In this document: piece by piece, positions 26,531-52,271 of the stretch
Layout: each line of letters starts with the position of its first letter
Numbering within the stretch: position 1 is the stretch's first letter
Origin: a virus
Virus record (IMG/VR): IMGVR_UViG_3300025676_000013
Length of the DNA stretch: 64,000 bases
Strand: one strand, 5' to 3'
Notes under the pieces: model-generated
Seen by the model: the letters and a program-made list of their open reading frames with translations, nothing else
Database searches by the model: none
What the model was told of the DNA's origin: nothing
Translations under genes and position numbers: made by a program

Positions 26531-26538
26531 TATTTATA
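26531..26538 (-). promoter_or_regulatory. Late promoter for the adhesin/chaperone cassette
   Basis: TATAAATA on the minus strand, 49 nt before the ATG at 26482. Confidence 0.8.
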
Positions 26539-26555: not shown

Positions 26556-29500
26556 TTATACTTCCCAAACATCTTTGAGTGTAATAATACCCCTCATATT
26601 CTCAAGGTTGCCATCGTATCTACTAGAAGTGTAAAGTAATGACGCAGGAGTTCCTAGTGTCCAAGATTGAGTTTTGAATGACCAAGAGTCGTTCAGCGTG
26701 TGTCCGTTTGGATTCTCGAACTGAATCATAATACCATTCTTGTAGTTAGTACCAGCAGTGTTATTTGCAGAGAATTCAGAATCATTCGTATTGCCCTCTG
26801 GTCCAAACAATGCTAAGTCTACATTGACATTATTAATAGATGCGCCTTGCAATAGAACTGGGCCAGCAACAATTATGACAGGAGTCTTATATGCAGTTCC
26901 AGGATTAGTGAATTCGATAGATGAAACATTACCATTCAATCCTAATACTACCGTTCCTTCTGCCCCGTAACCAGTTGGTTCTGCGTGTTCATCTACAACA
27001 ATGACTCGTGTTTCGCCAGGAACATAATCTGCCCAATCTTCGACAATCGTTCCAGCCCCGATACCATTATTAAGAGATACACTTCCTACAAAACCACTTC
27101 CGACTGATTTAGTGCTTGAGCCAACTAGGCCACCAGCATCTGAAACTACAATCATCGGTTCGTCATAGTTAGTTCCACGTGTAGTTAATACAATGTCAGT
27201 TACTACGTTATTAAGGTCTTGAGTAAGAACTGCGCCTGAACCAGTATCTAATGGGTCATTGATAGTAAACTCAACATCGACATAATTAGAACCCGGTTTA
27301 ACAACAGTTATTGAAACAATTTCACCAATCGTAATTGGTGCAGTCCAAGTACCTGAACCAGCAACACACGTTGCTTCGTCTGAGAATGCAACATCTGAAC
27401 AAGAACCTGGTACTGCTTCAGTAGTTAGAACTGGTCGAACAATTGCACCTGAACCATATAGAGTACCAGTCATATTGCCTGTGATATCATACTGCGGAGT
27501 TCCCGTAGGGTCCATCACAACGATTTTAGTTTCTGGTGAGTATCCTGTACCACGATTGGCTACACCAACAGAGGCAATAGAACGATTAGTTTCTACAGTT
27601 GCGTATGCTCCTTCTCCTGGCCCAGATACATCAACTATGTTCACTATATCAGTAAGTGTATATCCTTGTCCAGGTCTGTCTACAGCAATATTGATAATTG
27701 TTCCTGCGGCATCGACTGTAGCAAGTCCTCGAACTCCTCCACCAGTAGGTGAATTGATATCAACAAAAACGCTATTATCACGTACCCAAAGGGTTGCTTT
27801 AATGTTTGTGTCATTATCATCATAGAGGTCATACTTATCTGTGATTTCACATTCTTTAGTAATTACGTATGTGAAAACAGCATTCTGAGGTACGTCACCA
27901 GAATCAAACATCCCACCTGCGTGAGTAATTGTATGTGCTTGAATATCTAAGTTTGTAAACTCTAGAGTATCTCCAACATTAGCAGAGATAATAGATGGAA
28001 CAAAAGCGTTGTTCTGAATATCGACACTTACTGTTTTAGCAGTAGTATCCGTATATCCTGTACCAGCGACTGATACTGCGAATCCAGCAATTCCGCCGTC
28101 AACTAGTGACATTGAAGTTGCGGCTGCCACAGTAGGAGTTCCACCTGTAATTGCAACACTGTCAGCGACAACATAATCTGCTCCGCCATCTGTAATTGTT
28201 ACAAAATCTACACTGTCATCTTCTTTAAGAGTAACATATCCAGCCGCAAGTCCACCAGTTGAAGTGGTGAAAGTAAGCGTGATAGTAGGATTAACAATGT
28301 GAGTAGTAACTTCCCTTGGATGAACGTGAGCACCGTTTGTTGCAGTGAATTCAAATGATTGATTGAATACGTTCCAAGATACTGTTTGGTCGTGAGTGTG
28401 ACCCGCATCAACCGTAGTTGATAGAACAGGAGTTCCCGATTTAATAAGATTAACTTCAGTCTGGGTTAGATGAACTGTATGAGTATGTCCATCTCCACCT
28501 GGTACTGCGGCAACCGCTACTTCATAGTATCCAGTATATCCTGCACCAGGAGTTTCAACTTTAACTTCTTCTACCATTCCATCTTTCAATGTGAATGAAG
28601 AAACCGCTTTAGTTTCTACTGAGCCCGCTACATCAACTGCTCCCTTATCAAATGCTCGTACTGAAGTATTTGCTGACCATTTAGTACCACCGTTTGTGAT
28701 TACGACATCTGAAACACCATCATCATAAACTGCGTTAAGTATTGCTCCAGTTCCTTGTTTTCCATTTGCATCAACTGTGTATGCGTAAGAATCAATAAAT
28801 CCAGAGTCATCATTGATGAACACTTTATAAATTAGTCCGTCTGATAATTCTTTTACGTATGATTCGCCTGAAATATTATACTCATAAGAACGTGTAAAAT
28901 CGTCAAGTAGTGCGACAATTGGGTCAAAATATTCTTCACAAGTAGTAGGAGTATCATAACTTCCACCAGAACCATCGATATCCGATGCGTTGTGCATTGC
29001 AGTCACGCCCCAACCAGTCACTGAACTTGTAGCATCGTGACAATAAGATTGGAAAGGCTTGAATAGAACTGTATCGTAATGTTCTGCAAAGTTTCCTGTT
29101 ACACCATTATTGTAAACAGTATTACCAGTAATGTCTGTAATTTTGACATAATCTCCACTGTCAACTCCACCAAACATAAGTGCGGCATCTGCGCCACGTC
29201 TTAGAATAAGTTCTGGGTTGTCTGTGTCTGGGATAGAAGTGTTATTAAGAATAGTTAAGTCTACTGCAGGGTCACCATTAATTTCGTGTCCCGTTGCTCT
29301 GAATGTAGTAACTCCACCAACTGTGGTATTCTTGTTAATATCATATGCTTTAATCTTAGTAACTGAGGTAGAACCTGTAGCCGTTTCAATATCAAGTTTT
29401 AAGTGATGTTGGAATGGTCGTGGCTCTCCTACAATCTGCATACTTTCACCAAATGATACAATTGCACCAGATGTTGGATTATATGAAATGTGGTGAGTCT

Positions 29501-30140: not shown

Positions 30141-30174
30141 TGTATTTTATCTCCAAAATTGTATTCTTCTGATA

Positions 30175-30182
30175 TATTTATA
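30175..30182 (-). promoter_or_regulatory. Late promoter for the 1194-aa gene
   Basis: TATAAATA on the minus strand, 35 nt before the ATG; GGAG RBS. Confidence 0.8.
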
Positions 30183-30210
30183 AGAACTAAATTCATAATC
30201 ATATCGTATA

Positions 30211-33200
30211 TTATGGAATCACTAGAGAAGATACTTCTCTAAATTGAGTTCCGTCTGCGTTTTCAACTATTACATCATATGTTCCAGAAGCCAGTCCACC
30301 TTGGTCATCGACCATTGCCAGATTATTAACATCTGTGAACTGGTAACTTGGACTATTTGCCACTGGTCCTGTACCCGGAGTGCTAGTAAGTTCTACCCAC
30401 ACTACAGTACCATTTCCACCAGATACAAATCCTGCTCCAAGTATAAACCAATTAGACGGGTCTATCTCCGTGACCGATATGATTCTTAATGTATCTCTAA
30501 CATTGAATAAGGTTGGAGCAGTTGCGGTATCTCCATCAGTATTTGTAATTATAAACTCTTGGTCTCCAAGTGGAGTTAGAGGATTGATAACAAAATTAAC
30601 TTTAGTAGGCAACAAGACTGCTTGTGAAACCTGTTCGACTCCACCGAGTGTGATTGTCCATAATGGGTCAATACCATCACCAACTACTTCGACTGTATCT
30701 CCCGCCATTGCTGAGACTACTGTAGTATCCCAAGTTCCTCTTGGTGCAATACATTCTGCTTCAGTCGTGAAGTTAGCATCAGAACAATGTGCTGGAACTT
30801 CAGGAGTCCAAGTGCCTCTTGGTGCGATACAAGTTGCTTCAGTCGTATATGAAACGTCAGTACAAGTACCTGGGGTCCAAGTATTATTCGCTGAAGTCCA
30901 AGTATTATTCGCTGAAGTCCACGTACCTGCATTATTTTCACAAGATACTTGGTCATAGTAAGAACCGATAGAACAAGTTCCCTGAGCCAGACAGTTAGTT
31001 TCGTTATTGTTATATACTGGATTAGAACAAGTTCCTTCCATTATACAATCTGCTTCAGTATTATTTGCCGATGCTGAACAACTTCCTGCAGTCCAAGTTC
31101 CGAATGGTTCTACACAACCTGCTTCAGTAGTATAAATTCCATCAGAACAGAATTCTGTTGCGAGTCCCGTCCAAGCACCGTTTATTGTTTCACAATCTAC
31201 AGAGTTGTAGTATAATGGATTAGAACAAGATGGGGTTATTGCCGATACTGCTCTATTACCAAACTCAATACTCATAGTGGAAATCATAATTGGTGGATTA
31301 AGAATTTCATTAGAACGCTTGTTAACGTCATAGTAATCTTCAACTACAGATTCTCCGAATGATTCAAGAGTACGCATTCCAGCGATTGGCTGTCCAACGT
31401 AATCTGCATTCTTCATATCAAGATGGTTGTTTGCCCATCGCTCTTCTCCTCCGATTGGAACTCCGAAGACGTTCATTGAACGTGCTAACAATAGATACTC
31501 ATCAGATGAAAGATTAGGAACAGATTTTACTGAGATGTTATCCCAATAAGTGAATCCATTTCCAGTAGTTGAAAGAGTTAAGAATGCGTTACCCGTAACA
31601 GGTGCAGTAAAGATAAAGTCTTTAGAGCCGTCTGTGTCGTTCGCCGCAATCACCATACTTCCATACGCATCTGAATCAGGCGTAGGACCAATCTTAACGA
31701 TTGAATCAGTAGGTCTATCAATATCGAATGATACTTTATAATTCAATTTATCAGTAACTTCAAAACTAATATGTGCAATACCTCTTGCAGAAGTACCGAC
31801 ACCAGATGTATATATTTGTTGAGTATTTTGATTTACATAAGCCTCTGCACCTTGCTGAGGTGAGAATGTCCATTTCTCTTCGATTTCTCTAACAGAAACA
31901 TCATCAATACTTCCTTGAAATCCCGTATTAGTATAATAAGGACTATAATTTTCAGGTCGATTATTATCTACAGTAGATATGAAGTGAATTTTGCTATCCG
32001 CAGAACCCGCTCTAACGTGATGTGTACGTTGTCCGCTTGGAACAAGTCCAGTTGTATCAGCATCAAGAACTGGGATATCTTCTTCGTGTAATGATACAGA
32101 ATTGATTAATCCAGTTCCATTCATTCGTAGAACAAACTGGTCACTGGCTTCACCTATCAAATCGAGATGATGAATACCAGATGTAGTAATCGTTTTCTGA
32201 AGAACTCCGCCAATCAAGATTTCAATTGATGGGTTATTAGCAGATGTTCCAATCAATGCTAGTGTCTCGTGTCCTTCAGGAATAGTTTGACTAACTAGAA
32301 TATAACTTCCAGTATCATAACTAATAGTGAATTCGTGAGTATATGTATCAGCGTGATAGGCATCAGTCTGAGGGAATGTTCTTGTGCGAGTTGCATCAGC
32401 CATCAACCAATCAGCATCAACCTGTGTAATCTGGAATTGATGTGAGTGACTTCCGTTAGGACCAGGCCCAACTTGGAAAGTAAGAATATTATGTGTCTCA
32501 AGAACACAATCTAATGTAGTCTCGTAACTAGAGTTTTTGACTAAATTATTCTCTAGAGTATATGTCATTGTTCCATTTACAGAAGAGTTAAAGTTCATCA
32601 CTGCATTAGTAATTGAAACATCAACACCCGAAGCAGTCCAATTGATTTGAAGTGGGTCTACTATATCAAGATTCCAGTTAGCAATCTTATGAGTAGTATC
32701 ACTACCAAGAGCAACTCTTAATCGCCCAGTCATTCCATTATCACTTGGGTCCATATCTGCTAAGGTATACTTAACTTCATATAGTTTGCCAGGAGTAAAT
32801 ACTACTGTCTGATTAATCTCAGTATCAGATAAAATAGTTCCGTCAAGATACGCTTTACCGTTGATTGACTGCCATCCTTCACCCATATACCAAGCATTCT
32901 GTCCAGTAACACGTTCTCTGATTGATATATTATCAATCTTACCTATTCCCGTGTTAGACAATCTCAGTATTGCAGTATTATTAGGAGCGACTACAGTTTC
33001 AGAATAATGTCCTACTAGTGTATTTGCAGTTCCGACAATCGTTGTATCGCCCATCAAGGATGCTGTAAGTGTTCCATTCTCTGCGCCGAATACATCTTTA
33101 AACGACTCAATAATATCATATTGAATTTCGTAAGTGATTCCGTCTTGAACTGTTCCAGTAACAAGTTGTTCGATATGAGCGGCAGTGCCATCAGTTGTAT

Positions 33201-36200
33201 GTGCAGTACCACCGTTTACTTCCCAAGAACCTGTCTCTGTCCAAACAACTTCTTTGAATGAAACATTGTCGAGTAGAATATTTGAACGCTGATTAATATC
33301 AACACTCATATAAACTTTAGCAAGTCCCTCGTGGTTATTTGTTACAAGGAATTGCTCTGAATTAGCACCTTTTATCATTGTAACTGGGTCAATATATTGG
33401 ATAGTACCAAGTTCAATATTCATTGCTTGAATCTTAGGTAGTGCTCCAAGTCCAGTTGCTGTTACTAGATTTCCAAGTTGTAACAAGTCTGCTTGAGTTC
33501 CCGCTACTGGGAACGCATTTGCAGGTTCTGGTTGTACTTGGAAGTAATCATTTCCTGTTCCGTTGTCTATTTGAATTTTATCTTTAATGTGTAATGGAGT
33601 GTACATATTTTCTTGACCGTGATGATAATAAACTACGATATCATCTCCAGCATTAACTACTGGAATGTCAATAATATTGAATGTACCAACCATAGATGCG
33701 TGCCAACCACACTGATAATACAGTGTGTCTGGTGCAACTGAAGGTACAGTAAATTCTACAATCTCATACTTAGGAACTCCTGCGGCATCTAGTCCGAATT
33801 TAGAACCTGGGTCAGTTTGAACCCCTGCTCCTTCTTCTCCTCTAGAACCCGTGACACCCAATAGATACTCACCGAAGTAAGCGCCTGGGGTAAAGTGACT
33901 TCCGTCATCAGTAGTTATATAGAATGGATGACCAGGTGCGTTGACTCTAAATCTATAAGTAGCACCTCTGTATAAGTTAAGAGTTCTGTTTGTTCCCTCA
34001 ATCATTCCTTCTTTATCAAATTTGTATAGTCCGCCATCATCTTCTACTGCGTAGTAGAGATTAGTTTCTCCTGGCGGTACGAATGGCCCAAATCCAGATA
34101 CTCCATCAGCACCTGTTAGACCGAAATCTTCTGGGATTTTCCAAGTAAATTCTTTCGAGAAGTTACCAATCCATTGTGACACTCTCCATTGTGCTAGTCC
34201 AACATCTTCATTTGGATTTAATGCGGTACATACTGAGTAGTCATCGACTCCATTGTAATACCAACCAGTTACATCTAGTTCTTCACACCATCCACTCAAT
34301 CCCATACAAACTGGGAATGGTTGGTCTGAAACCCAAGTTCCTGGGTTATCCTCAAGAGATACAAAGTCGTTTAGAGCCCCAGTTTCAATGGTTAATCCGT
34401 GACTTGCGTTTTTATTAACACAATGATAGCCCTCATTTGGTTCGCCTAAGCCTCGTGTCATACCCGCTTGAACTAGGTTATCCCAGCCTCCACCAGGTAT
34501 TGCTTTAATACCAGCGGCGTGCATATACATATCTTGCATTACACCAGTGAATGGGTCAGGAGCAGTAACGTGTCCTGAAGAACTCCAAGCATTATTTACA
34601 AATGTATATTTACCACCACGGAATAAGTCGAATCCTCCTGCTGTTCCTTCGTTACCACCGAATGCTTCGTGTTCTGCAATGTCTCTTTGATAAGGATAGT
34701 AAGAGATGTTTGACATATCGTGCCAAGACCAGAACCAAGGAGAATCTTGTGCTCCTTCAACTGTAGTCTGGCCAGGGTCAGCGGCTGTAATAGTAGATTG
34801 TGTATCGACAATAATTTCAAATCCGTCTGTGGGTCCGTAACCATCGCCAAGTGCAACAACTGTATGGTTCATCATTGCGCCAGGTAATTCAGTAGGCGTA
34901 TATGGTTGTGGTCCAGATGGTAACTGAACAACATCACCAACTGATAATGCGTGATTGACTGATTTAACAGTTCTTGGTCGAGACCATAGAACTTCTACAC
35001 CAGAGATGAACGGGTCACCAACGTGGTTAGTTAAATCTCGTTCAACTTCGTATCTAAAGGATGCCATATCAGCAACAACTTCATAACTCTCAATAACATT
35101 GAAGAAAGTTGGAGTAGTTCCTGGCGCATTCTCTAGAGGATAAATTACTGTTTCAGTTAATGCAAAGTGGTCCCAATCGATAACATAGTCAACAAAGTAA
35201 TTTGTATTACCGTGATGAATTCCGTTATATACGTTAGTATAGTGTATCTTGTCGCCTGCTTTAAGTTGGTGTCCGTCTGATTCAATACCACGTTCTTTCT
35301 TAACATATCCTGCGATATCTGTGAAAGGCGTTGCGATTGTAGAAGGATTCAAATCATCGCCACCTAAAGCGAAATCATATTTTCCAACTGTGAATTGACT
35401 TGACCCAGGATAGTATACTCTATCAAAATCGTGAATATGTTGGTCAATCGAAATAATTAAATATGTGTCATTTGCAGGGTCGATACATCCAAATTCTACT
35501 GTATGGAAATGCTGTGGGTCAGAAGTTCCGTAATTGGAAGTTCCAATCTTAGTTGCTCCGCCCGTATGACTCCAAGTTCCATCAGTGTCTTGTGTGACTC
35601 CAGTTAATGGACTTGCTTTTAGTGTCGCTTCGTCTGTTATGTCAAGGAGCAATTGATGATAATGACCAAAGTTAGTCAATTCAATATTAGTTCCGCCTTC
35701 GATAACATAGTATTCAGACATACCGTGAGTATGTGAGCCAGTCATTCCAACTATATACATTCCACCAGCACCATTGTTTAGTGCAGGGTCCCAGTTATAT
35801 GTAACAGAGTGAGCGTGAGGAGAGTTATCTCCAGAGCCAGTTCCGTCTGTCGTTGACATTGAAATTACGTTTGTGCCTGTTTGAATAGTAGCGTATTCGG
35901 CAGTTGTGAGTTCACCAGTGTGTATGTGTCCGATAACATTAACGTCATCAAAGAATACATCGACTCGTGCATCACCTTTTTGTACTGCGGTGATAATATA
36001 ATCTTCCCATTTACGCTCTCCAACTCCAACTACTGCTCCGCCACCCGTTGTGCTTCCGCCTGAACCATAACCAGTACCGCCTTGTTCTAGAGTAAGTGAA
36101 GTAATACTACCATCAACTGAGCCTGTTGCTAAAGCATTGACTGTTGGTGAACCACCAACAAATGTAACAGCAGGTGGGCCAGTATATTCAGAACCCGCAT

Positions 36201-37923: not shown

Positions 37924-37944
37924 TTTTATATTATTTCCTATAAA

Positions 37945-38142
37945 TTATTCGGACGCTAGTTCGCTGGTGTAGTTCAACTGCATAGAGGTGGTAACATACG
38001 GGTCACTAACTCCTAACATTTCAAATTCTTGCATCCTAACAAAATTATTTTGCTGTTGAATCATTATGTTGGTACGTTCACGCCACGTTTTGAAGGTTTC
38101 ATCCTTTCTTACGTACGGTATAGTTGTGGTTCCAGTTGCCAT
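37945..38142 (-). CDS. Small conserved-type structural hypothetical protein
   Basis: 65 aa; ETFKTWRERTN motif typical of N-termini of T4-like tail-associated proteins; tight operon spacing. Confidence 0.6.
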   Translation of the reverse strand: MATGTTTIPYVRKDETFKTWRERTNIMIQQQNNFVRMQEFEMLGVSDPYVTTSMQLNYTSELASE

Positions 38143-38148
38143 AAAGTC

Positions 38149-38361
38149 TTAATCCCCTCGGTTTTCAATCAAATCGTACACAAGTTTTTTTAGTCCCTTT
38201 ATTTCGCTTCTCATACTATTTATAACTCTTCGAGAATCCGTTTGAACTTGTTGTGCTTCTTTCTGCTTTTTGATTGCAATTTTGCGTTGTTTATATGCTC
38301 CAGAGTCAGTAAATATGACTGCGCCAGTTCTTGGGTCTTTTGTATATGTTGGTTCCGCCAT
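38149..38361 (-). CDS. Small hypothetical protein
   Basis: 70 aa; YTKDPRTGAVIFTD followed by a coiled coil; GGAG RBS. Confidence 0.65.
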   Translation of the reverse strand: MAEPTYTKDPRTGAVIFTDSGAYKQRKIAIKKQKEAQQVQTDSRRVINSMRSEIKGLKKLVYDLIENRGD

Positions 38362-38371
38362 AATCTATCTC

Positions 38372-43810: not shown

Positions 43811-43845
43811 TCGCTATTATCCTAAATATGTTCCTATCATCTTTA

Positions 43846-43877
43846 ATGTTCCCTCCCCACTTTTGGAGAGAGAACAT
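43846..43877 (-). promoter_or_regulatory. Intergenic stem-loop without U-tract (gp8 to DUF4815)
   Basis: ATGTTCTCTCTCC...GGAGGGAACAT inverted repeat; may act in mRNA processing or stability. Confidence 0.4.
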
Positions 43878-43898
43878 ATATAACATCCTAAAGTATTC

Positions 43899-44909
43899 TT
43901 AGAATTCTACTACGAGTTTCAAATCCTCAATCTGGTCAGATGCACGAGTAATAGCACGCCTGTTCTCAAGATAAATCAACTGTCCACTATCGCTTTCTAA
44001 ACTTACGTCTGCATCAGCATATACGGATGCTTGGGCTTTCGTTCCGCCACCAGCAAGTTCTGGATTACGCAAGAGTCCGATTTGTCGAAAGTCATCGTTC
44101 TCTGGGAATCCGTCTGAAGTCTCAAGTCTAACGTGAATCAATCCGTGGTGAGTTTTCGCTGTAAATATAGAATCTACATCACCGAAATCGGCCTGCTCAG
44201 ACCCTGCAAGAACTCCTGTACCTGAAATAACTGGCATCCAGTCATTGGTAGTAGAGTTAATAATGTCGTTCAATTCTAGTTTATATAAGAATGTCCACGT
44301 ATAGTTGTCAGATGTAGTAATCGCTTGAGCAACTAGTCCAGCGGCATCTCCAGTAAAGCCAGTTGGCTCTTCAGAAGCACCAGTAGGTAACCAAAGTCCA
44401 CCTAAAGTACCTTCACAAGTTGTTCGTGAAACAGCAGTTCCGCCATCAAAGACTCCACCAATATAGCATTTTCCGCCAGATGGTTCGCCTGTACACATAT
44501 AAACTCGATATTCAGAATTCATCACAATACTGTGACTTCCGATTTTTGAAACAAAAGAACGGCCAGGTTCATCAATTCCTGTGATGCCGTTTGCGGCATC
44601 TCCGTCAAATGCGATAGTATCACCTGTTTCCCAGTTAATACGTGGAAGCACGGGTGAGATATCATCATTCTGAATTCGCTTGGTACCAACAATGTCAGTC
44701 CAATATTGTGATTCATCCTCATCAAGAGGGTCAGGTAGAGTAAAGTTACCTGAACTTTCGTCATTTCCTTGAGCATCATTAGGCCAAGCGTCATTTCGCC
44801 CAAACCCTAGATACAGGAAGTTGTCGTCAACAGAACCAGTAGTTTTGAACTGGTCGATGAAAACCATCAAGTTCTGTGTTCTGAATTTACTGGTTACAAT
44901 TGCACCCAT
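43899..44909 (-). CDS. gp8: Baseplate wedge protein, T4 gp8-like
   Basis: AIVTSKFR, YLGFGRNDAWP, VLPRINWETG, VMNSEYRVYMC, DNYTWTFLY, SGQLIYLENRRAITRASDQIEDLKLVVEF. Confidence 0.92.
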   Translation of the reverse strand: MGAIVTSKFRTQNLMVFIDQFKTTGSVDDNFLYLGFGRNDAWPNDAQGNDESSGNFTLPDPLDEDESQYWTDIVGTKRIQNDDISPVLPRINWETGDTIAFDGDAANGITGIDEPGRSFVSKIGSHSIVMNSEYRVYMCTGEPSGGKCYIGGVFDGGTAVSRTTCEGTLGGLWLPTGASEEPTGFTGDAAGLVAQAITTSDNYTWTFLYKLELNDIINSTTNDWMPVISGTGVLAGSEQADFGDVDSIFTAKTHHGLIHVRLETSDGFPENDDFRQIGLLRNPELAGGGTKAQASVYADADVSLESDSGQLIYLENRRAITRASDQIEDLKLVVEF

Positions 44910-44963
44910 TTTACTAACTCCTTAAATTATTATGTTCTGCTATCATTTGATATTTATCAGAAC

Positions 44964-44971
44964 TATTTATA
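44964..44971 (-). promoter_or_regulatory. Late promoter for gp8
   Basis: TATAAATA on the minus strand; a second GATAAATA at 44951-44958. Confidence 0.8.
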
Positions 44972-44999
44972 CGTTTGTTTAATTAAAATATTCACAACT

Positions 45000-47900
45000 T
45001 TATGCCGGTACTGGCCATACGTTGCTATCGTCTACAGTAGTAGAGTGGACGTGGTCGCCTGCTCCAGAGCCCTGTGTGTTTTGTGACCACTGACCACCAA
45101 TTGGAACACTTCCCAAATATGATATTGTATCGTGGTTGTCATAGTCACTTGTTTGTGATATAATGTTATAAGTAGAACCATTCCACTCTAATACTAATTC
45201 GTGAGTGTATACGGCCGCGTGTGTACTATCTCTCTGTGGTGTAGTTACATAAGTTCCACCAATCAAGGATGTATAATCTGCAACACTTATCCAGTAATCG
45301 TGGTCGTGGAATCCACCAGTTAGAGAGAATTTATGCACATATGTAGATGTTCCTGGTATAATATCCCATTGTGAAATACCAGCAACTACAAATGTTCCCT
45401 TTGCTCCCATATTGGGATTAAATTTTATCGTATATCCGTGATAGTGGGAACTGGCTCCGTTTGGAGAATCAAAGAATATAATACCATAGTTGGCATTCTG
45501 AGCATTAATCAAATCATTTGCTTGTGCCAAAGTAATTGGTTCACACGTTCTTCCGACATTAACTCCCGCTGAATCCAAAGAGCATCCATCATAAAGCAGG
45601 TGGTCGTGACTTCCGATACCAGCAATAAACGATGGTTGCATCTGAACAATGGGCGGGTTGTTTGCCTGAAGGACATTATTTACATAAGTTTTTCTTTCCG
45701 TTAAGTCTTCCACTTCGGAAGTTGTTTGACTTGTCGTAACTTCAGACGTAATAACTGGGTCACCAACCGATGTTTCAGTACCATAATCTGAATAGTATAT
45801 AATATCAGTCGTGGTCGTTGTAATCTGGACCGTTGACGTTGTTGTCGTTGTGATTAAATCACTATATGTTACGATAATAGTTGTATCACCAGTCGCAGGC
45901 GTATCTGGATACGTTGTTGTGACTGGTAGTAATTCGGTTGAAGCCTGCGTAACAACAACACTCGGTGCCGCAGAAAGAACTTCATCAGTTGATGTAGTCT
46001 TCGTTATATATATGCTACCACCAGTTTGCTGTGGTATTGCAACTAGATTTGGATTCCAGTCAATTGTCAAGTTATGCCAGTGAAGTCCTTCAGCCGCATT
46101 CTCAACTACAGATACATAATATTTAGTAGGGTCTTGAAGTGAATCTTCAATGCCACCTTTAATCCAAGTCACTGACCAATCAGCATAGAATATATTATAA
46201 TTAGTATCCCATTTAATTCTGTACTCGTGAAAGTGAGCACCCTCAATTGAATCGTAAATAGTAACACTATCTACAACACCATCAATCAGTTGCATACCTT
46301 GGTCAATCGTCATTCCGTGAGCGTAAGAAATCTGTCCAGTCAAAGCCCCTTCTGCAAATGGTCCCACAACTGTATCATTATGAAAGTGAGGGTGAGAACC
46401 ACCTGGATAAGGATATCCAGGAGAAGCAAATGTCGGTAGAATTTCCATCATCTCATTATAACCTGGTCGTGAAAACAGATTAGAGATGTTCGTTGGATGT
46501 GCGTGTGACCTTGGGTCTGCGGAATAGAATTGATGTCCGTCAGATGATTCCCATTTCTCAGTATCTAACGCAACGAAACTTAATGTATTTGGGTCGTATG
46601 TAATTGTGATTCCGTGATAATGGTCTCCGCCTGAGATAGATGTATATGTTTTTACTTCAGTCACTTCACCATTAATCAAATCAGTTGCTTGATTATCATC
46701 TAATGGTAATGCTTGTCTGCCAGTGTGTGTTCCGAGAGTGTCTAATGTTGTTCCGTTAAATGCGTGTAGATGGTCTGGTTCAGAGCCTTCTAATTTATGC
46801 CAATCGTGTGCATTTGATAATGTAACATCAGGAGCAGTATACAATGGTGTACCATTCCAACCAAGATGGGTCGTTATACCATTAACTAAAAGGGTATGCT
46901 CGTGAGTTCGTAGATGTGTATCTACTGCTTCCCATTCTCCAGTACCGTTTTCATCCCACATCTCAGCCATTTCGTCTGCAACAAATTGTTGCGTAGAAAG
47001 ATTCCACATAATTTTATATACGTGATAATGTTGATGCTGGCCAGAATCTTCAATAGAAGAATAAACATAAAATGCGTTTACTACTCCATTAGCAAGTTCT
47101 TCTGCTTGTATTCTCGTAATCGGTACAGCCGTTCTACCATCATTAGCACCAAATGTATCTAGTGTCTCACTATTGAAATAGTGGATGTGAGCGTTCTCGC
47201 CATATTCGTTTGCTCCAAGTATCTCTACTACGGGAGCAGTCTCAATATAAAATGTTCCGTCATCATCGTCATCATCGACAGCAAGATAAGGCGTATCAGA
47301 GCCTGTGTCGTATGGTTCCCAAACTAGAGTTAGAGGATTCAAATGCCATCCAGCAGATGAACCAAGAAGAATATTTTCATCTACTATTCCAGTCCACGAA
47401 GTAATTACAGGATGCAAGTGAGAGACAGGAGTATTATAAGTCCATATAGGGAAGAAAGCATCCCAGTCAGTCATTTCAATATCAGATATCTCAGTTGCAG
47501 AGAATAATTCTGTGTTAATGTCGTATACTACTTTATATCCGTGAACGTGAGCCGTTTCAGAAGCAGGGATTTGTGAAGATGCACCCGTTTCTGTAGAGGA
47601 ATCATATGTATCAGTTAGTTTGTATATATCACAATTCTGTGGGCCAGTTCCTTGATAACTATCAATACCAATTCTTGTAGCCATATAAAGTTCGCCATTA
47701 GTGTCTTCACCTAATGTCAATATAGATTGGTCGTGAGTTGTTAAGTTCAATACAGATGTTGCAGGGTCCCAGAAAGATAAATTCTTTCTTGTATATCCTA
47801 CATCGCCATTGTATTCGATAAATGTGAATACATCGTGGTTCTCCATATTCGTTTGTGCTATCAGATTCCAAGTATTGAAAGCCGCATTCCATATAATGGA

Positions 47901-50900
47901 GAATGTGTGAGTATAACTTTCAGCGTGAACCGTATCACTCTGAACAACAACAATTGGTGTTCCAGGATTCGCTTGAGCCATCGCAACTTGACTCGGAGTT
48001 AATATAGCCTCGTGACTATGATTTGCTCCATTGATTGCATTAGGAGTTATTGTGAAGTGTGCAGAAAGTCCATCAGGATTTTCTTCTAGTGAAAAGAGAT
48101 GACCAGTAGTACCAGCCCAACTCGTACTCCAATCTCCGAATATGTATTTGCCTTGAAGTCCAGTTAAGTCACTTCCCCTATAGATGAATCCACCTAAGAT
48201 AGAAATACCAGTTCCGTGACTGTACTCGTGAATAGGTGATTTTAAATCAAGAAGAAATGCTTGAGTATTTGCATAGCCTTGGTCTAATGCCATTTGGTCA
48301 ATAGTTGCTTGGTCTTCTTCAAAGTAATGATATGCTTCCATTACTCTCCAACCATAGTTGCCGCCCTTTTCGATAATGTTTACTTCTTCAAATTTATTTT
48401 GTCCAACATCAGCCGCCCATAGTTTACCATCTGGAGCAAAAGAGAATCTCCAAGGATTTCTTAATCCGTATGCCCATATCTCTTCTCTAAACATTGCACC
48501 CGCAGTACCGTGTGGTTTTGCATTTACACCAGTGAAGGGGTTATCGGAAGGTATGGAATAAGGTTTATTATTAACTGTGTCTGGTGCGACATCAATTCTA
48601 AGAATTGTGCCCAATATGTTAGTAGGGTTCTGTGCATTACCATATACTCCGTGTCCGCCGTGACCGCTAGAACTCGAAGTATCTCCCGCATTTCCGCCGT
48701 CACCGAATCCGATATAGAGATAACCATCTGGGCCAAATACTAATTGACCACCGTTATGATTCATATCAGGTTGTGGCTGTGTGATTAAAATTCGTTCAGT
48801 AGTAATATCAACTGTCTCTGCCGCAACGTCAGCCGTGAACTCAGCAATGATTGAAGTTGAAAGAGGATATCCGTATGAGCCAGTAGATGGACCTTGCTCT
48901 GTCATATAATAGACATACAAGAGTCCGTTTGTTGCGTAATCTGGATGGAATGCAAGTCCTAGAGCGCCACGTTCATCATATGCACCGAATGGCCCGACTC
49001 CGATAGTCAGATTAAGAGAAGTGTAGTCGAAAAATAATGATTTGACACCAGACGTAGTATCCATCAAGTGAATGATTCCAGATTGGTCTACAATACAGAT
49101 TTTATCTGGGTCCATCGGATACGCTACAATAGTCGCAATGTCTGTGCCTGTACCCATCTTAACATCCCCTAGTAAATCTCCAGTATCACCAGAGCCAGGA
49201 ACTTGTTGAATATAGTTAGATGAATATAATTCTACCCAGTCTACATTAGGTACTAGCGTAGCAGGGAAAGTCTGTGCGTGTTGGAATGTAAATGATGCTT
49301 CACCAATTGCAGTAGCAACCGTGGCATCATCAAGTTCATTGAATACATTCTGTCCGAGATTCATTGTGTTACCAGAATAATCAACACCGTCAATTAAACT
49401 AGGGTCAACCACAAGTTCTGGTTTATAGTTATAACATATCCACGTAGTAACTGGCGTATATCTAAATCCGTGCGTACAAGGATTACCCATAAAGTCAGTA
49501 TTCATTTCCCAGTCTGATTCGTATGTGACTAGGTACTCGTGATAATGTGCAGAGGTAATTCCATTTGAATCGGCTACCGTACCGCCTTGGAAGACGCCAT
49601 TTTCATCTGTCTCAGGGACCCCGTTGGTAGTTATTCCGATACTATCGTAAAGAGTTACGTCTGTGATATCTCCGTCAATTAATTTTCTTGCATCGGCTCT
49701 TGATAGAGGGTCAGATACACGACCACGTTGTCTGTCTACAATTTGACCATCTACAAATCTATGAACGTGACCCGTTGCTTCAGGCAAGAATGCAGTCGTA
49801 TGAACATCTGCAAGGAATTCTGGAATTTCAAAAGCATCAGAATTCATTAATGCTCTTGCTTGAGAATAACTTAGTCCGTGAGCCGTTGCTTCTTTTCCGT
49901 GAACCATTAAATTAGGTATTGCACTTCCATCAAAACTATGAACGTGAAACGCTGCCGCTCCAACACTCATCAATGGAAGTTCAAGTCCTTTAGTAAGACT
50001 TGTAGATACTAGTGGTGCGAAACCATTCTTTCTTCCGTGGGAATGGATTACATTAGGGTTATCAAACGCCTGTATCTGAACCGCATCAATAACGTCATTT
50101 GTATTCCCGTATACTTTTTTAACTAGTGTGTCTTCTCGACCACTCTCGAATGCGCCGTAACTCTTTTCAGGAGCGTATTCGGCTTCTTGCATAAACGATT
50201 CAACCCATTCAACAACTCTAGAAAGATGTTTGAATACGGACAATTCATAAACGTCACAAGAAATCATTCTACCGTCTGTGGTATTCTCTAGATTATCCTC
50301 AATGCCTAATTCAGTAACAGAAGGTGGGAACTCTTCAATAGGTAGAACTCGGAGAAGATTAGTAAATTCAAATACAACCTTCTCAGGCCAAGCATTAATC
50401 TGGTTCTTGATTTCATCACGGAGAATATTAATTTGATAGAGTTTCTCTGTAAGTTTGGTACCAATAGTCTTGATTTCATTTTTATCAGTTACTATATCAA
50501 CCCCTACGTGTTCACCAGGAGCACCCCAATTATCAGGAGTTACTAAGGCAGCCCTTGAATCGAGATTACCCATCATTTCAATGATATATTCGTCAAAGCC
50601 TTTCTCAATGAAGACTCCAAATCCAGTATGAGCCCTTCCGACTGAACCGTGTTGTTCGCTCTCTTGGTCCCAGATATCAACCGCGACATCAAGATAAGAG
50701 AATATCGCAATAATCATCTTGACGTAATCGGTAGGTAATTCGATTACCAAATCAACTGTAGACCTAAACGAGAACTCAGCAAATAATTTCAGTCCAACAG
50801 GGTGAACTAGTTTTTTAAGAACTTCTCTATACGACTGAATAGGTACATCACTTCGGATAACATAAGAGAAATCTTGGTAGTAGTCATTATCTTGGAGTTT

Positions 50901-52271
50901 TCTGTCAGAAGACAGGAAGCCGCCAGAGTCAAGCCAGTAACCATTTGTTTTCCAAACGGCCGTCTTGACATTAGGTTGAGTCTCGATATTAACAAGAGCA
51001 TCACACTCTTCTCGTGTCAAAGGAGGACTACTTACATTTAATAGTATATTGTGTTCTACGTCTTGAAGGGTCTTAGTAATATCGACTACTGGGTACCACG
51101 AAAGAAACGCACTCTCTCCGAAATAGGGGCTCGCCTTGTCTAACCCATCCGGGTGCAACGCCGCCACACAATCAACCTCAGTAGTAAACGTATGAAGAAC
51201 TGGCCAATCCGTAGAGATACTACAGAATGATTGGCTCGGGTTTTCCCAATAGTTGTTCGCCGCCACGTTAAATAATTTCTCACCTAACTCAAACTCACCA
51301 GTTACTTCTAATAGGTTAAGTTTTGTCCAGTCAGTATCAGTACCATCAATGGTTGCTGTAGCACCAGAGGTTAATCCTTTTATTAGTGAACCACCCTCTC
51401 TGTGTACCCCTGCCGCGTGTAGGTAATGAACTTCATTTGGATGTCCACTAATATTAATCCATTTATCTGTCCATTTGTGCCCATTGACAATACATTCACC
51501 CTCTGTCCGAATACCGTCAGAGATGATTAGTGCTTTATAGGGTATAGTGCCAGATGTACCAACGTCTTCCCAGATTTCTTCGTCTTTAATGAATACGCCA
51601 TTTACTTCGGTTAATAGGAGTCGCTCGTAGTCTGTAGTAGAGACTGATTCGTCCATATCCACGAAAGCCGTTGCGCCGCTAATTTGGCCACGGATTTTTT
51701 TGTTGTAGATAGACCGTACCGTCTCGGCCACGTGTGAGTTATTCGTGTTGCCGAAATAGGGCGATGCAGAATCTAGTGTGGCTTGGTCAGTTAGTACCGT
51801 AATCCATTGTGGCTCATACCATACACTGCCAGACGCCTTCATCATCCATTGCTTTGGATACATCGTATCAACGTCTGTATTAAAGTCTCGTCTGAATAGA
51901 AACTCTAGGGCAGAAGTAGTACCTTTCTGTCTATAGACAGGTTGGATATTCTTAGCAAGGAAGGACTTGTCAGTAGTCTCTACTGTTGGGTCTATTGAGG
52001 TGTGTGGTGTACCGTGGAGATACTTAGCCTCGAATTCTGGTATGAAATTATCTAGTGCGTGGTCAACATCAATGTTCTGAATCAAATCAGTTATTTGATT
52101 GTACTCGCCTAGTTCCCCATTAACACCAGTCTCTCGTTCCAAGTATTCAAAATACTTGCGAAGGAAAGTGATGAACATAGGATGGTCTTCCCGTACATAG
52201 TCGGGCACCATTCTCTCAACAAAGACCGATAGGAACTTAGCAGGAGATTTAGTAAATTTATCGTTAGCCAT
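45000..52271 (-). CDS. gp7: Baseplate wedge initiator gp7-like protein with inserted GSDH beta-propeller and His-rich repeats (2423 aa)
   Basis: N-terminal PDYVREDHPMFITFLRKYFEYLE, YRQKGTTSALEFLFR, KLQDNDYYQDFSYVIRS...KKLVHPVG; between gp6 and gp8. Confidence 0.85.
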   Translation of the reverse strand: MANDKFTKSPAKFLSVFVERMVPDYVREDHPMFITFLRKYFEYLERETGVNGELGEYNQITDLIQNIDVDHALDNFIPEFEAKYLHGTPHTSIDPTVETTDKSFLAKNIQPVYRQKGTTSALEFLFRRDFNTDVDTMYPKQWMMKASGSVWYEPQWITVLTDQATLDSASPYFGNTNNSHVAETVRSIYNKKIRGQISGATAFVDMDESVSTTDYERLLLTEVNGVFIKDEEIWEDVGTSGTIPYKALIISDGIRTEGECIVNGHKWTDKWINISGHPNEVHYLHAAGVHREGGSLIKGLTSGATATIDGTDTDWTKLNLLEVTGEFELGEKLFNVAANNYWENPSQSFCSISTDWPVLHTFTTEVDCVAALHPDGLDKASPYFGESAFLSWYPVVDITKTLQDVEHNILLNVSSPPLTREECDALVNIETQPNVKTAVWKTNGYWLDSGGFLSSDRKLQDNDYYQDFSYVIRSDVPIQSYREVLKKLVHPVGLKLFAEFSFRSTVDLVIELPTDYVKMIIAIFSYLDVAVDIWDQESEQHGSVGRAHTGFGVFIEKGFDEYIIEMMGNLDSRAALVTPDNWGAPGEHVGVDIVTDKNEIKTIGTKLTEKLYQINILRDEIKNQINAWPEKVVFEFTNLLRVLPIEEFPPSVTELGIEDNLENTTDGRMISCDVYELSVFKHLSRVVEWVESFMQEAEYAPEKSYGAFESGREDTLVKKVYGNTNDVIDAVQIQAFDNPNVIHSHGRKNGFAPLVSTSLTKGLELPLMSVGAAAFHVHSFDGSAIPNLMVHGKEATAHGLSYSQARALMNSDAFEIPEFLADVHTTAFLPEATGHVHRFVDGQIVDRQRGRVSDPLSRADARKLIDGDITDVTLYDSIGITTNGVPETDENGVFQGGTVADSNGITSAHYHEYLVTYESDWEMNTDFMGNPCTHGFRYTPVTTWICYNYKPELVVDPSLIDGVDYSGNTMNLGQNVFNELDDATVATAIGEASFTFQHAQTFPATLVPNVDWVELYSSNYIQQVPGSGDTGDLLGDVKMGTGTDIATIVAYPMDPDKICIVDQSGIIHLMDTTSGVKSLFFDYTSLNLTIGVGPFGAYDERGALGLAFHPDYATNGLLYVYYMTEQGPSTGSYGYPLSTSIIAEFTADVAAETVDITTERILITQPQPDMNHNGGQLVFGPDGYLYIGFGDGGNAGDTSSSSGHGGHGVYGNAQNPTNILGTILRIDVAPDTVNNKPYSIPSDNPFTGVNAKPHGTAGAMFREEIWAYGLRNPWRFSFAPDGKLWAADVGQNKFEEVNIIEKGGNYGWRVMEAYHYFEEDQATIDQMALDQGYANTQAFLLDLKSPIHEYSHGTGISILGGFIYRGSDLTGLQGKYIFGDWSTSWAGTTGHLFSLEENPDGLSAHFTITPNAINGANHSHEAILTPSQVAMAQANPGTPIVVVQSDTVHAESYTHTFSIIWNAAFNTWNLIAQTNMENHDVFTFIEYNGDVGYTRKNLSFWDPATSVLNLTTHDQSILTLGEDTNGELYMATRIGIDSYQGTGPQNCDIYKLTDTYDSSTETGASSQIPASETAHVHGYKVVYDINTELFSATEISDIEMTDWDAFFPIWTYNTPVSHLHPVITSWTGIVDENILLGSSAGWHLNPLTLVWEPYDTGSDTPYLAVDDDDDDGTFYIETAPVVEILGANEYGENAHIHYFNSETLDTFGANDGRTAVPITRIQAEELANGVVNAFYVYSSIEDSGQHQHYHVYKIMWNLSTQQFVADEMAEMWDENGTGEWEAVDTHLRTHEHTLLVNGITTHLGWNGTPLYTAPDVTLSNAHDWHKLEGSEPDHLHAFNGTTLDTLGTHTGRQALPLDDNQATDLINGEVTEVKTYTSISGGDHYHGITITYDPNTLSFVALDTEKWESSDGHQFYSADPRSHAHPTNISNLFSRPGYNEMMEILPTFASPGYPYPGGSHPHFHNDTVVGPFAEGALTGQISYAHGMTIDQGMQLIDGVVDSVTIYDSIEGAHFHEYRIKWDTNYNIFYADWSVTWIKGGIEDSLQDPTKYYVSVVENAAEGLHWHNLTIDWNPNLVAIPQQTGGSIYITKTTSTDEVLSAAPSVVVTQASTELLPVTTTYPDTPATGDTTIIVTYSDLITTTTTSTVQITTTTTDIIYYSDYGTETSVGDPVITSEVTTSQTTSEVEDLTERKTYVNNVLQANNPPIVQMQPSFIAGIGSHDHLLYDGCSLDSAGVNVGRTCEPITLAQANDLINAQNANYGIIFFDSPNGASSHYHGYTIKFNPNMGAKGTFVVAGISQWDIIPGTSTYVHKFSLTGGFHDHDYWISVADYTSLIGGTYVTTPQRDSTHAAVYTHELVLEWNGSTYNIISQTSDYDNHDTISYLGSVPIGGQWSQNTQGSGAGDHVHSTTVDDSNVWPVPA
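47610..49170 (-). other. Glucose/sorbosone dehydrogenase (PQQ-type/HHIP-like) six-bladed propeller domain inside gp7
   Basis: ERGALGLAFHPDY, NHNGGQLVFGPDGYLYIGFGDGG, IWAYGLRNPWRFSF, DVGQNKFEEVNIIEKGGNYGW, ISILGGFIYRG, GKYIFGDW, LGEDTNGELY. Confidence 0.88.

What the first reader, a model, noticed from the sequence alone, without database searches (positions are those of the whole stretch)
26556..52271. Integrated hypothesis: a metal-loaded, redox-active baseplate/fibre apparatus
Seen together in late-promoter-driven structural genes: a dehydrogenase-type propeller, type-1 Cu cupredoxins, many HxH modules, glycan-binding repeats and disulfide-type micro-modules. Known: PQQ dehydrogenases pass electrons to cupredoxins or cytochromes. 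Inferred: the free virion could oxidise surface sugars, sense redox or metal state as an infection trigger, protect itself from oxidants, or deliver metals to the host. This is the best candidate for an undescribed system, but it is a hypothesis from co-location only.
Basis: inference. Interest (0 to 1): 0.85.

Follow-up and report, generated by a model that had tools for sequence, protein, structure and literature searches.

The report
Metal-binding add-on modules on phage baseplate
The baseplate and fibre genes of an uncultured marine T4-like phage really do carry a sugar-dehydrogenase-type propeller, copper-protein-type domains and many conserved histidine-pair modules, but these are separately exchangeable add-ons, most likely for structure and host binding, and not a demonstrated linked redox machine.

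Summary
The observation mostly holds. On the minus strand lie gp6, a 2423-aa gp7, gp8 and three giant proteins behind T4-type late promoters. gp7 carries a GSDH/HHIP-type six-bladed propeller (Pfam 7e-33) that keeps the catalytic His and the Arg-Asn pair of PQQ enzymes. It has 22 HxH motifs where 3.5 are expected. The 2570-aa protein has a cupredoxin-type domain with an invariant His/Cys-x2-His-x2-Met set.

The integrated redox reading is not supported by how the modules are distributed.
- The cupredoxin-type domain belongs to a very large family of marine phage fibre proteins: at least 4268 clusters, and cultured cyanophages, pelagiphages and Methylophilales phages. None of the 120 best hits carries a GSDH.
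- The HxH-triad module is an orphan confined to this one phage clade (6 representatives among 1.84 billion).
- A sister phage has a 711-aa gp7 without any of these modules.
- In a second gp7 lineage, cupredoxin copies occur in 12 loci without GSDH and in one with it.

Best reading: accessory, shuffled, probably metal-stabilised adhesion and structural modules. A redox link stays possible, because the nearest cellular GSDH relatives are fused to cupredoxins or cytochromes c, but it is unproven. The scan's first-stage notes on this same window had already flagged the separate modules.

The parts
52290..54050 (-). gp6 baseplate wedge gene, directly upstream of gp7
   Evidence: Pfam Gp6-like_1st 8e-24, Gp6_C-I and Gp6_C-III
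45000..52271 (-). gp7-like baseplate wedge protein, 2423 aa. The core is residues 1 to about 770; the rest is an accessory array of about 1650 aa.
   Evidence: Pfam Baseplate_wedge 31.9 bits, phrog_17744. gp6-gp7-gp8 synteny. The sister phage L015 has only the 711-aa core.
47577..49154 (-). GSDH/HHIP-type six-bladed propeller (gp7 residues 1040-1565). It keeps Glu1100, His1172, Arg1271 and Asn1272.
   Evidence: Pfam GSDH 7e-33. PDB by sequence: HHIP 1e-22, sGDH 7e-17. VIA Z 29 and 24. Residue mapping.
47802..48044 (-). Type-B His module nested in the last propeller blade (gp7 residues 1410-1490). Further copies lie at gp7 2318-2400 and B 1820-1900.
   Evidence: Alignment of the three copies. 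His 1418, 1420, 1449, 1455 and 1479 are invariant in 33 sequences.
46047..47570 (-). Tandem HxH-triad modules (gp7 residues 1568-2075), each with three HxH, one helix and beta-hairpins
   Evidence: AF2 pLDDT is about 80-90 here. The profile finds only this clade and no PDB sequence.
49527..50060 (-). Early His modules of gp7 (residues 738-915; HxH at 743, 776, 835, 909)
45003..45629 (-). C-terminal HxH triad plus type-B module of gp7 (residues 2215-2423)
43899..44909 (-). gp8 baseplate wedge gene
   Evidence: Pfam Phage-Gp8 3.5e-30
38372..43810 (-). 1812-aa structural protein C (DUF4815, phrog_358), without HxH or cupredoxin modules. It is conserved far beyond the clade.
30211..37923 (-). 2570-aa mosaic baseplate/fibre protein B
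33664..34026 (-). Cupredoxin-type domain of B (residues 1300-1420) with His1332, Cys1405, His1408 and Met1411
   Evidence: Motif. Invariant in 26 homologues. Best structural matches are auracyanin, rusticyanin, azurin and amicyanin at Z 4.7-6.5. Family relatives hit PF25489 and PF00127.
36808..37101 (-). Candidate second cupredoxin-like domain of B (residues 275-372; His317, Cys352, His355, Glu358/359 invariant). Its fold is not verified.
   Evidence: No Pfam hit. AF2 confidence is low.
35404..35949 (-). Two HxH triads of B (residues 659-840; HxH at 666, 703, 731 and at 754, 805, 829)
   Evidence: All twelve His are invariant in 26 homologues.
35974..36606 (-). GxGY beta-repeats of B (residues 440-650)
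   Evidence: AF2 pLDDT about 85. They resemble T4 sheath gp18 domain I, Z 6.2. phrog_460 and phrog_701.
30724..31251 (-). Seven C-x10-C...G-T-W micro-modules of B (residues 2225-2400)
   Evidence: The same modules are inserted in the gp7 of some relatives, which have 37-44 Cys.
26556..30140 (-). 1194-aa protein A, with one HxH triad (residues 552-607), a degenerate cupredoxin-like domain (695-790) and one Cys micro-module (914-925)
30175..30182 (-). T4-type late promoter box upstream of the gene for protein A. Further boxes lie at 38217-38224, 44964-44971, 54492-54499 and 26518-26538.
   Evidence: 13 matches against 5.75 expected, 12 of them on the minus strand

Best explanation
The region is the baseplate-wedge and fibre module of an uncultured marine T4-like myophage clade: gp6, gp7, gp8, a DUF4815 protein and two giant mosaic proteins. 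A conserved assembly core carries long accessory arrays of independently shuffled modules.

The modules and their most likely roles:
- The GSDH/HHIP-type propeller most likely acts as a surface-exposed binding domain for a host envelope sugar or protein. It may still be a working PQQ enzyme.
- The HxH-triad modules are small single-chain domains in which three HxH strands most likely jointly hold one structural metal ion. That would be a one-chain counterpart of the six-His iron sites that three chains build in the T4 gp37 fibre tip.
- The cupredoxin-type domains are a common marine-phage fibre building block that probably binds a metal through His/Cys/His/Met.
- The Cys micro-modules are probably disulfide or metal knots.

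Together they would stiffen and stabilise an extracellular adhesion apparatus.

Shown: the domains, their conservation, their distribution and the late promoters. Inferred: metal occupancy, the geometry of the His sites and the binding role.
For: Gene identities and promoters.

The array is accessory. The sister phages L015 and L016 have a 711-aa gp7 that is 71% identical to residues 3-608 and 692-777, sits between gp6 and gp8, and has none of the modules.

The modules shuffle.
- In lineage 2, gp7 carries 0-4 cupredoxin copies. GSDH occurs in only one locus, and there are no HxH modules.
- Cys modules are inserted into the gp7 of some relatives.

The cupredoxin-type family is general to marine phage fibres.
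- At least 4268 clusters match the profile.
- 224 of 237 near-full copies in the 120 best proteins keep C-x2-H-x2-M.
- At least 600 stretches lie on viral contigs.
- PHROG tail-fibre families match the domain region of one such protein.
- Cultured phages carry it too, including P-HM1 gp7.

The ligands are conserved. HxH iron sites in T4 gp37 are established (Bartual 2010, cited in PMC11705849). The propeller is closest to HHIP, a binding protein.
Against: - No metal, cofactor or binding was measured.
- The propeller keeps the catalytic His and the Arg-Asn pair. Its blade-4 segment matches PQQ enzymes (sGDH 6e-10, Asd 8e-8) but not HHIP. That conservation is not explained by a pure binding role.
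- Many nearest cellular relatives are fused to cupredoxin or cytochrome c.
- In lineage 2 the only GSDH-bearing gp7 has two cupredoxin copies just upstream of the propeller.
Confidence: 0.6

Rival explanations
1. The gp7 propeller is an active PQQ-dependent sugar dehydrogenase on the free virion. It oxidises a host-surface or dissolved sugar and passes electrons to the type-1 copper domain(s) of the neighbouring fibre protein, as an infection trigger, a redox sensor or protection against oxidants.
For: - Glu1100, His1172, Arg1271, Asn1272 and Gln1291 are invariant in 29 clade sequences and match the consensus of 85 cellular relatives.
- The RNP...GGNYGW segment matches true PQQ enzymes and not HHIP.
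- Among the 85 cellular proteins in the list of the 120 best GSDH matches, 3 are fused to PF00127 or PF13473 cupredoxins and about 11 to cytochrome c.
- The His/Cys/His/Met set is invariant.
- The lineage-2 proteins P0058 and P0060 combine two cupredoxin copies and a GSDH in one gp7.
- An animal HHIP-like protein combines GSDH with DM13, DOMON and the related At5g54830-like domain.
Against: - The cupredoxin family occurs thousands of times without GSDH. In lineage 2 it occurs in 12 loci without GSDH.
- In this phage the two domains sit on different proteins, and nothing is known of their distance in the virion.
- The C-terminal PQQ-carboxylate-binding Arg residues of sGDH are not evident, and the last blade is HHIP-like.
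- No PqqC was found in five related records, though these are only 18-54% complete.
- From general knowledge: virions assemble in the cytoplasm, where PQQ enzymes and blue copper proteins are not normally loaded. Free reducing sugar ends are scarce on envelopes. No terminal electron acceptor is apparent.
Confidence: 0.1
2. Metal carrier (the 'Ferrojan Horse' idea). The many His and Cys/His/Met sites load iron or copper so that the virion mimics a metal source and docks to host metal-uptake receptors, or supplies scarce metal to the infected cell.
For: - Site density: at least four HxH triads plus type-B modules in gp7, two triads in B and one in A, all with invariant His.
- The setting is marine: Tara, JGI and ENA metagenome sources.
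- The hypothesis is published for HxH-bearing marine phage fibres (Bonnain 2016, and R22Y in PMC11705849).
Against: - There is no similarity to siderophores or to receptor ligands.
- A six-His or His/Cys/His/Met site buried in a domain holds its metal tightly and is not built for release.
- The HxH-triad module is restricted to one clade, so it is not a general marine strategy.
- A sister phage does without the modules altogether.
Confidence: 0.1
3. A purely proteinaceous scaffold. The conserved His and Cys residues make hydrogen-bond or stacking networks, or pH-sensitive switches, and bind no metal. The cupredoxin-type domains are plain Ig-like spacers.
For: - Metal binding was not measured.
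- AF2 folds the HxH modules confidently without any metal.
- Ligand-less or degenerate copies exist: A 695-790, B 1090-1290, and 12 of 237 copies in relatives.
Against: - 24 of 24 His are strictly invariant where about 23% of positions are invariant overall.
- The full C-x2-H-x2-M signature is kept in 224 of 237 diverged copies.
- HxH on beta-strands is a proven metal site in T4 gp37 (cited).
Confidence: 0.1

Closest known systems
T4 gp37 long-tail-fibre tip (HxH iron sites; Bartual et al. 2010) and HxH fibres of marine phages (Alteromonas phage R22Y, PMC11705849)
   Same: Repeated, conserved His-x-His motifs on beta-strands of late structural proteins of a T4-like phage. Probable octahedral six-His metal sites that stabilise an extracellular fibre.
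   Different: - In gp37 each site is built by one HxH from each of three chains of a trimer. Here the HxH come in threes within modules of 60-110 aa on a single chain, and gp7 is a single-copy wedge protein in T4.
- The modules contain a helix.
- There is no sequence similarity to any PDB chain. The module profile finds only this clade.
Soluble PQQ glucose/aldose dehydrogenases (sGDH 1C9U, Asd 2G8S) and the Hedgehog-interacting protein propeller (HHIP)
   Same: Six-bladed GSDH fold (Z 24-29). The catalytic His144 equivalent, the Arg228/Asn229 equivalents and the GGNYGW motif are present.
   Different: - It is embedded in a baseplate wedge protein.
- A His module is inserted in the last blade.
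- The last blade is of the HHIP type (GED..GELY), without the Arg-x-Arg of sGDH.
- No signal peptide, no periplasmic context and no evident PQQ supply.
Type-1 copper cupredoxins (amicyanin, auracyanin, plastocyanin) and Pfam PF25489, the At5g54830-like domain
   Same: His ... Cys-x2-His-x2-Met, as in amicyanin. The best structural matches are cupredoxins. Family members reach PF25489 at 3.8e-6 and PF00127 at 8e-4.
   Different: - The domain sits inside giant virion proteins, often in tandem pairs.
- It is not secreted.
- There is an extra invariant His, in a DG-x-H motif.
- The B copy itself is not recognised by any Pfam model.
Giant gp7 'baseplate wedge initiator' proteins of cultured T4-like cyanophages (for example Prochlorococcus phage P-HM1 gp7)
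   Same: A gp7 core followed by a very long mosaic extension. P-HM1 gp7 contains the same cupredoxin-type domain with C-x2-H-x2-M intact.
   Different: P-HM1 gp7 shows no HxH enrichment in the 3776 residues examined. In no cultured T4-like phage did the tblastn match to this gp7 extend into the GSDH region.
Cellular multidomain GSDH proteins fused to cupredoxin, CHRD or cytochrome c (for example P0040, P0042, P0044)
   Same: They are the nearest relatives of the phage propeller, at 35-45% identity, and share all its conserved residues.
   Different: The fused cupredoxin there is the classical PF00127/PF13473 type. It gives only a marginal partial match to the phage-type domain profile. These are secreted cell-surface proteins and not virion parts.

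Membership tests
T4 gp7 baseplate wedge protein | Match to the baseplate-wedge profile, and position between gp6 and gp8 | tested here: met
   PF23786 at 31.9 bits against a cut-off of 27. phrog_17744 at 2.5e-45. gp6 lies upstream and gp8 downstream.
PQQ-dependent soluble sugar dehydrogenase (GSDH, PF07995) | Six-bladed GSDH propeller above the family threshold | tested here: met
   114.7 bits against 25. VIA: Z 24.6 to 2ISM and 23.8 to 1C9U, rmsd 3.3-4.2 over 292-336 residues.
PQQ-dependent soluble sugar dehydrogenase (GSDH, PF07995) | Catalytic base His144 and the Arg228/Asn229 pair next to PQQ C5 (sGDH numbering; PMC6881810) | tested here: met
   His1172, Arg1271 and Asn1272 are invariant in 29 clade sequences. 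The segment aligns to sGDH 221-271 at 6e-10.
PQQ-dependent soluble sugar dehydrogenase (GSDH, PF07995) | C-terminal PQQ-carboxylate ligands (sGDH Lys377, Arg406, Arg408; residue list recalled from memory, positions checked against P0157) | tested here: inconclusive
   The alignment to sGDH is unreliable after blade 5 because of the inserted His module. The last blade reads like HHIP-type GED..GELY and has no R-x-R.
PQQ-dependent soluble sugar dehydrogenase (GSDH, PF07995) | PQQ and Ca2+ binding, and dye-linked sugar oxidation | not testable with these tools
   Needs recombinant protein. No PqqC was found in five partial related records, which is not decisive.
Type-1 (blue) copper cupredoxin | His ... 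Cys-x(2-4)-His-x(2-4)-Met ligand set | tested here: met
   In B: His1332, Cys1405, His1408 and Met1411, invariant in 26 homologues. His, Cys and His are invariant, and Met is at least 90% conserved, across the two phage lineages.
Type-1 (blue) copper cupredoxin | Cupredoxin Greek-key beta-sandwich fold | tested here: inconclusive
   Model region 1041-1160 matches auracyanin B (Z 6.5, rmsd 3.0, 93 residues), rusticyanin (5.7), azurin (5.6) and amicyanin (4.7). Most of the 50 rows are cupredoxins. But Z is under 8 and pLDDT is only 55-69.
Type-1 (blue) copper cupredoxin | Match to a curated cupredoxin profile above its threshold | tested here: not met
   B 1290-1425 has no Pfam hit even at E 10. 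A 695-790 scores 18.9 bits on Cupredoxin_1 against 27. A lineage-2 copy reaches PF25489 at 27.3 against 27, and PF00127 at 20.2 against 21.2.
Type-1 (blue) copper cupredoxin | Bound copper with the band near 600 nm and the type-1 EPR signal | not testable with these tools
   Spectroscopy on recombinant domain or on virions is needed.
gp37-type HxH iron-binding fibre domain | Conserved HxH motifs on beta-strands of a fibre or baseplate protein | tested here: met
gp37-type HxH iron-binding fibre domain | Sequence homology to the gp37 needle domain | tested here: not met
   The profile of gp7 1685-2075 finds no PDB sequence at E up to 10.
gp37-type HxH iron-binding fibre domain | Each site formed by three chains on a trimer axis | not testable with these tools
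   HxH come in threes within one chain, which suggests intrachain sites.

The most novel reading that the evidence does not exclude
The free virion carries a working extracellular redox relay. A PQQ-dependent sugar dehydrogenase on each baseplate wedge oxidises a host-surface or dissolved sugar and hands electrons to genuine blue-copper domains on the neighbouring fibre protein. The relay is used as an infection trigger or a redox sense. This would be the first oxidoreductase chain built into a phage particle.
Probability: 0.08. Interest if true: 0.9.

Novelty: new variant of a known kind. Interest (0 to 1): 0.55.

Why it matters
Three points reach beyond this one window.
1. A cupredoxin-type domain with an intact type-1 copper signature is one of the commonest building blocks of marine phage tail fibres and giant gp7 proteins, in cultured cyanophages, pelagiphages and Methylophilales phages as well. 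My full-text searches found no paper that describes it. If it binds Cu or another metal, marine virions are a trace-metal ligand pool beyond the iron proposed by the Ferrojan Horse hypothesis.
2. The HxH-triad module looks like a single-chain version of the three-chain iron site of T4 gp37. It is an orphan fold candidate, confined to one clade.
3. A GSDH propeller with its catalytic residues retained is fixed in the gp7 of more than 30 metagenomic phage clusters. That offers a defined test of whether a virion can carry a cofactor-dependent oxidoreductase.

Tried and rejected
- Megablast of gp7 against cultured phages found no match.
- The ESM Atlas gave no usable hit for two HxH modules (one search was a length error).
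- The AF2 model of B 260-1440 was poor (pLDDT 47.7). Cupredoxin domain 1, the ligand-less copy and the B HxH modules therefore remain structurally unresolved.
- Fold searches with the gp7 model were filled by the propeller. The HxH module fold was therefore never tested against known folds, and nothing can be said about whether it is new.
- Pfam at relaxed thresholds found no carbohydrate-binding family in B, A, gp7 560-1040 or the N-terminus of C. 'Glycan-binding repeats' is left unsupported, not disproved.
- A PqqC search in five related viral records found nothing, but these are fragments of 18-54% completeness.
- No whole genome is held for the window.
Long relatives of 130-150 kb could not be fetched, so B could not be examined in the short-gp7 phages.
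- Literature searches for GSDH or cupredoxin in baseplates or tail fibres found nothing relevant.
- Complex prediction was not used. A transient electron-transfer pair is a poor case for it.
- I considered and rejected the idea that the Acinetobacter 'phage' GSDH hits show phage GSDH genes. They are ordinary sGDH/YliI genes on contigs with cellular neighbours.
Full report
**What is there**

The interval 26556-52271 holds five co-oriented minus-strand genes.
- gp7-like, 45000-52271, 2423 aa: Pfam Baseplate_wedge and GSDH.
- gp8, 43899-44909.
- C, 38372-43810, 1812 aa: a DUF4815 protein.
- B, 30211-37923, 2570 aa.
- A, 26556-30140, 1194 aa.

gp6 lies directly upstream, at 52290-54050. The T4 late-promoter box TATAAATA occurs 13 times against 5.75 expected. 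Twelve copies are on the minus strand, in the gaps upstream of the gene for A, of B, of the gp8-C unit and of the gp6-gp7 unit.

The phage is distant from all cultured ones. Megablast finds nothing. Only the gp7 N-terminus matches T4-like phages of Caulobacter, Sinorhizobium, cyanobacteria and Pelagibacter, at about 30% identity. No whole genome is held for the window.

**The propeller**

gp7 residues 1040-1565 are a GSDH-type six-bladed propeller.
- Pfam gives 7e-33.
- By sequence, PDB gives HHIP at 1e-22 and Acinetobacter sGDH at 7e-17.
- Foldseek gives HHIP at 2.6e-15.
- VIA-align gives HHIP at Z 29 (rmsd 3.3, 319 residues) and PQQ sugar dehydrogenases at Z 24.

I mapped active-site residues against an Acinetobacter sGDH sequence taken from locus L131.
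- The equivalents of Gln76, His144, Arg228 and Asn229 are Glu1100, His1172, Arg1271 and Asn1272.
- They are invariant in 29 clade sequences and match the consensus of 85 cellular relatives.
- His144 is the proposed catalytic base, and Arg228/Asn229 flank the PQQ carbonyls (PMC6881810).
- The blade-4 segment that carries RNP...GGNYGW matches true PQQ enzymes (sGDH 6e-10, Asd 8e-8) but not HHIP.
- The last blade is of the HHIP type, and the Arg-x-Arg of sGDH is not evident.

Catalytic competence is therefore neither shown nor excluded. PMC4133262 notes that PQQ-binding residues differ among active members of this fold.

**The His modules**

HxH occurs 22, 7 and 3 times in gp7, B and A, against 3.5, 1.7 and 0.4 expected. 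The motifs are arranged in modules of 60-110 aa. Each module runs HxH, a loop and one helix, HxH at the start of a beta-hairpin, then a third HxH. The minimal copy is A 545-615. A second type, with five conserved His, occurs three times, once nested in the last propeller blade.

In an alignment of 33 gp7 homologues (54-96% identity in this segment) the 12 canonical HxH pairs between 1418 and 2064 are identical in every sequence. Two overlapping extra His vary. The six pairs of B are invariant in 26 homologues. AF2 models this part of gp7 with pLDDT of about 80-90.

A profile of three tandem modules finds no PDB sequence at E up to 10. It finds only six representatives among 1.84 billion proteins, all from this gp7 clade. 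More distant T4-like loci have no HxH-rich ORFs.

HxH motifs that bind iron are established for T4 gp37, and have been proposed for marine phage fibres (PMC11705849, citing Bartual 2010 and Bonnain 2016). Here the motifs come in threes on one chain, and gp7 is a single-copy wedge protein in T4 (established knowledge). I therefore infer intrachain six-His sites. I could not measure the geometry.

**The cupredoxin-type domains**

B 1300-1420 has His1332 and Cys1405-x2-His1408-x2-Met1411, the spacing seen in amicyanin. The set is invariant in 26 homologues. The AF2 model of B was poor overall. Even so, this region's best structural matches are almost all cupredoxins: auracyanin B at Z 6.5, rusticyanin 5.7, azurin 5.6, amicyanin 4.7 and plastocyanin 4.6.

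The B copy itself hits no Pfam model. A lineage-2 relative of the same family reaches PF25489 (At5g54830-like) at 3.8e-6 and PF00127 (Copper-bind) at 8e-4.

B 275-372 has an invariant His/Cys-x2-His/Glu set but no fold or profile support. A 695-790 is a sub-threshold Cupredoxin_1 match without the distal His and Met.

**Distribution: the key test**

1. Within the clade everything is co-inherited and syntenic. This holds for more than 30 gp7 clusters, 26 B clusters and loci L001-L019. Shared ancestry explains that, so it is no evidence of coupling.
2. The sister phages L015 and L016 have protein C 78-79% identical and gp8 84% identical. Their gp7 has only 711 aa and is 71% identical to the core. 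It lacks the propeller and all His modules. The array is therefore dispensable for the wedge.
3. A second gp7 lineage was found through P0058 and P0060, where two cupredoxin-type copies precede a C-terminal GSDH. It has 0-4 cupredoxin copies per gp7. Twelve loci have copies but no GSDH, about 14 full-length loci have neither, and only one has GSDH. None has HxH modules.
4. A profile of the cupredoxin-type domain from both lineages has His, Cys and His invariant and Met at least 90% conserved.
   - It finds at least 4268 clusters of 241-2000 aa.
   - The 120 best proteins hold 257 copies, mostly in tandem pairs. Of the near-full copies, 224 of 237 keep C-x2-H-x2-M.
   - None of the 120 has GSDH motifs or HxH richness.
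   - The family gives at least 600 stretches on IMG/VR viral contigs.
   - One example sits next to a major head protein and a tailspike, and matches PHROG tail-fibre families.
   - It occurs in cultured Synechococcus, Prochlorococcus, Pelagibacter and Methylophilales phages, including P-HM1 gp7 with the signature intact.

So the three module types are independently distributed.

**What still speaks for a redox link**

Among the nearest cellular relatives of the propeller, several are fused to classical cupredoxins (P0040, P0042, P0044) and about eleven to cytochrome c. A sea-cucumber HHIP-like protein combines GSDH with DM13, DOMON and the At5g54830-like domain. The one GSDH-bearing lineage-2 gp7 also carries cupredoxin copies. 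These facts keep the redox relay alive as a minority reading, which I put at about 0.1.

Against it:
- The two domains sit on different proteins in this phage.
- No PQQ source is evident. No PqqC was found in five partial relatives.
- From general knowledge, virions assemble in the cytoplasm, free reducing sugar ends are scarce on cell envelopes, and no terminal electron acceptor is apparent.

**Verdict**

The interpretation as one integrated redox system is not supported. The region is best read as a T4-type wedge and fibre module carrying accessory, shuffled and probably metal-stabilised adhesion modules.

Two features deserve follow-up in their own right. One is the orphan single-chain HxH-triad module. 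The other is the very widespread cupredoxin-type fibre domain with an intact type-1 copper signature, which my full-text searches did not find described.

Noticed in passing
L015:3698-5830 and L016:2214-4346: Sister phages (protein C 78-79% identical, gp8 84%) encode a gp7 of only 711 aa that ends near window-gp7 residue 777. Its short tail resembles residues 1636-1655. This is a natural deletion or short form, lacking the propeller and all His modules.
   Followed up: yes
L133:5992-7539, L212 (P-HM1 gp7), hits H43-H67: The cupredoxin-type domain with C-x2-H-x2-M is a common tandem module of the tail fibres and gp7 proteins of cultured cyanophages, pelagiphages and Methylophilales phages, and of at least 4268 metagenomic clusters. 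Pfam leaves it mostly unannotated.
   Followed up: partly
P0068 (Holothuria HHIP-like protein 2): An animal protein combines GSDH, two DM13 domains, DOMON and an At5g54830-like domain. The last of these is hit by the profile of the phage cupredoxin-type domain (E 2e-8).
   Followed up: partly
window 35974-36606 (B residues 440-650): The GxGY repeats fold confidently (pLDDT about 85) and resemble domain I of the T4 tail sheath protein gp18 (Z 6.2, rmsd 2.9, 72 residues). They give no carbohydrate-binding signal.
   Followed up: partly
P0012, P0014, P0020, P0024 (gp7 homologues of 2726-3217 aa): Some relatives carry 37-44 Cys in gp7, against 11 here. This suggests that C-x10-C micro-modules have been inserted into gp7 as well, which would make these modules mobile between proteins.
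   Followed up: no
window 37924-38371: An unusually long gap (448 nt) separates the end of the gene for C from the start of B. A late-promoter box sits at 38217-38224, about 290 nt upstream of the B start. No ORF of 80 aa or more lies there.
   Followed up: no
window 23793-26482: Downstream of the gene for A lie a Gly_rich_2 protein (23793-24767), a tail-fibre assembly chaperone (Phage_tail_APC, 24767-25519) and a 305-aa protein without Pfam hits (25565-26482). This looks like an adhesin-plus-chaperone cassette, as a first-stage note had flagged.
   Followed up: partly
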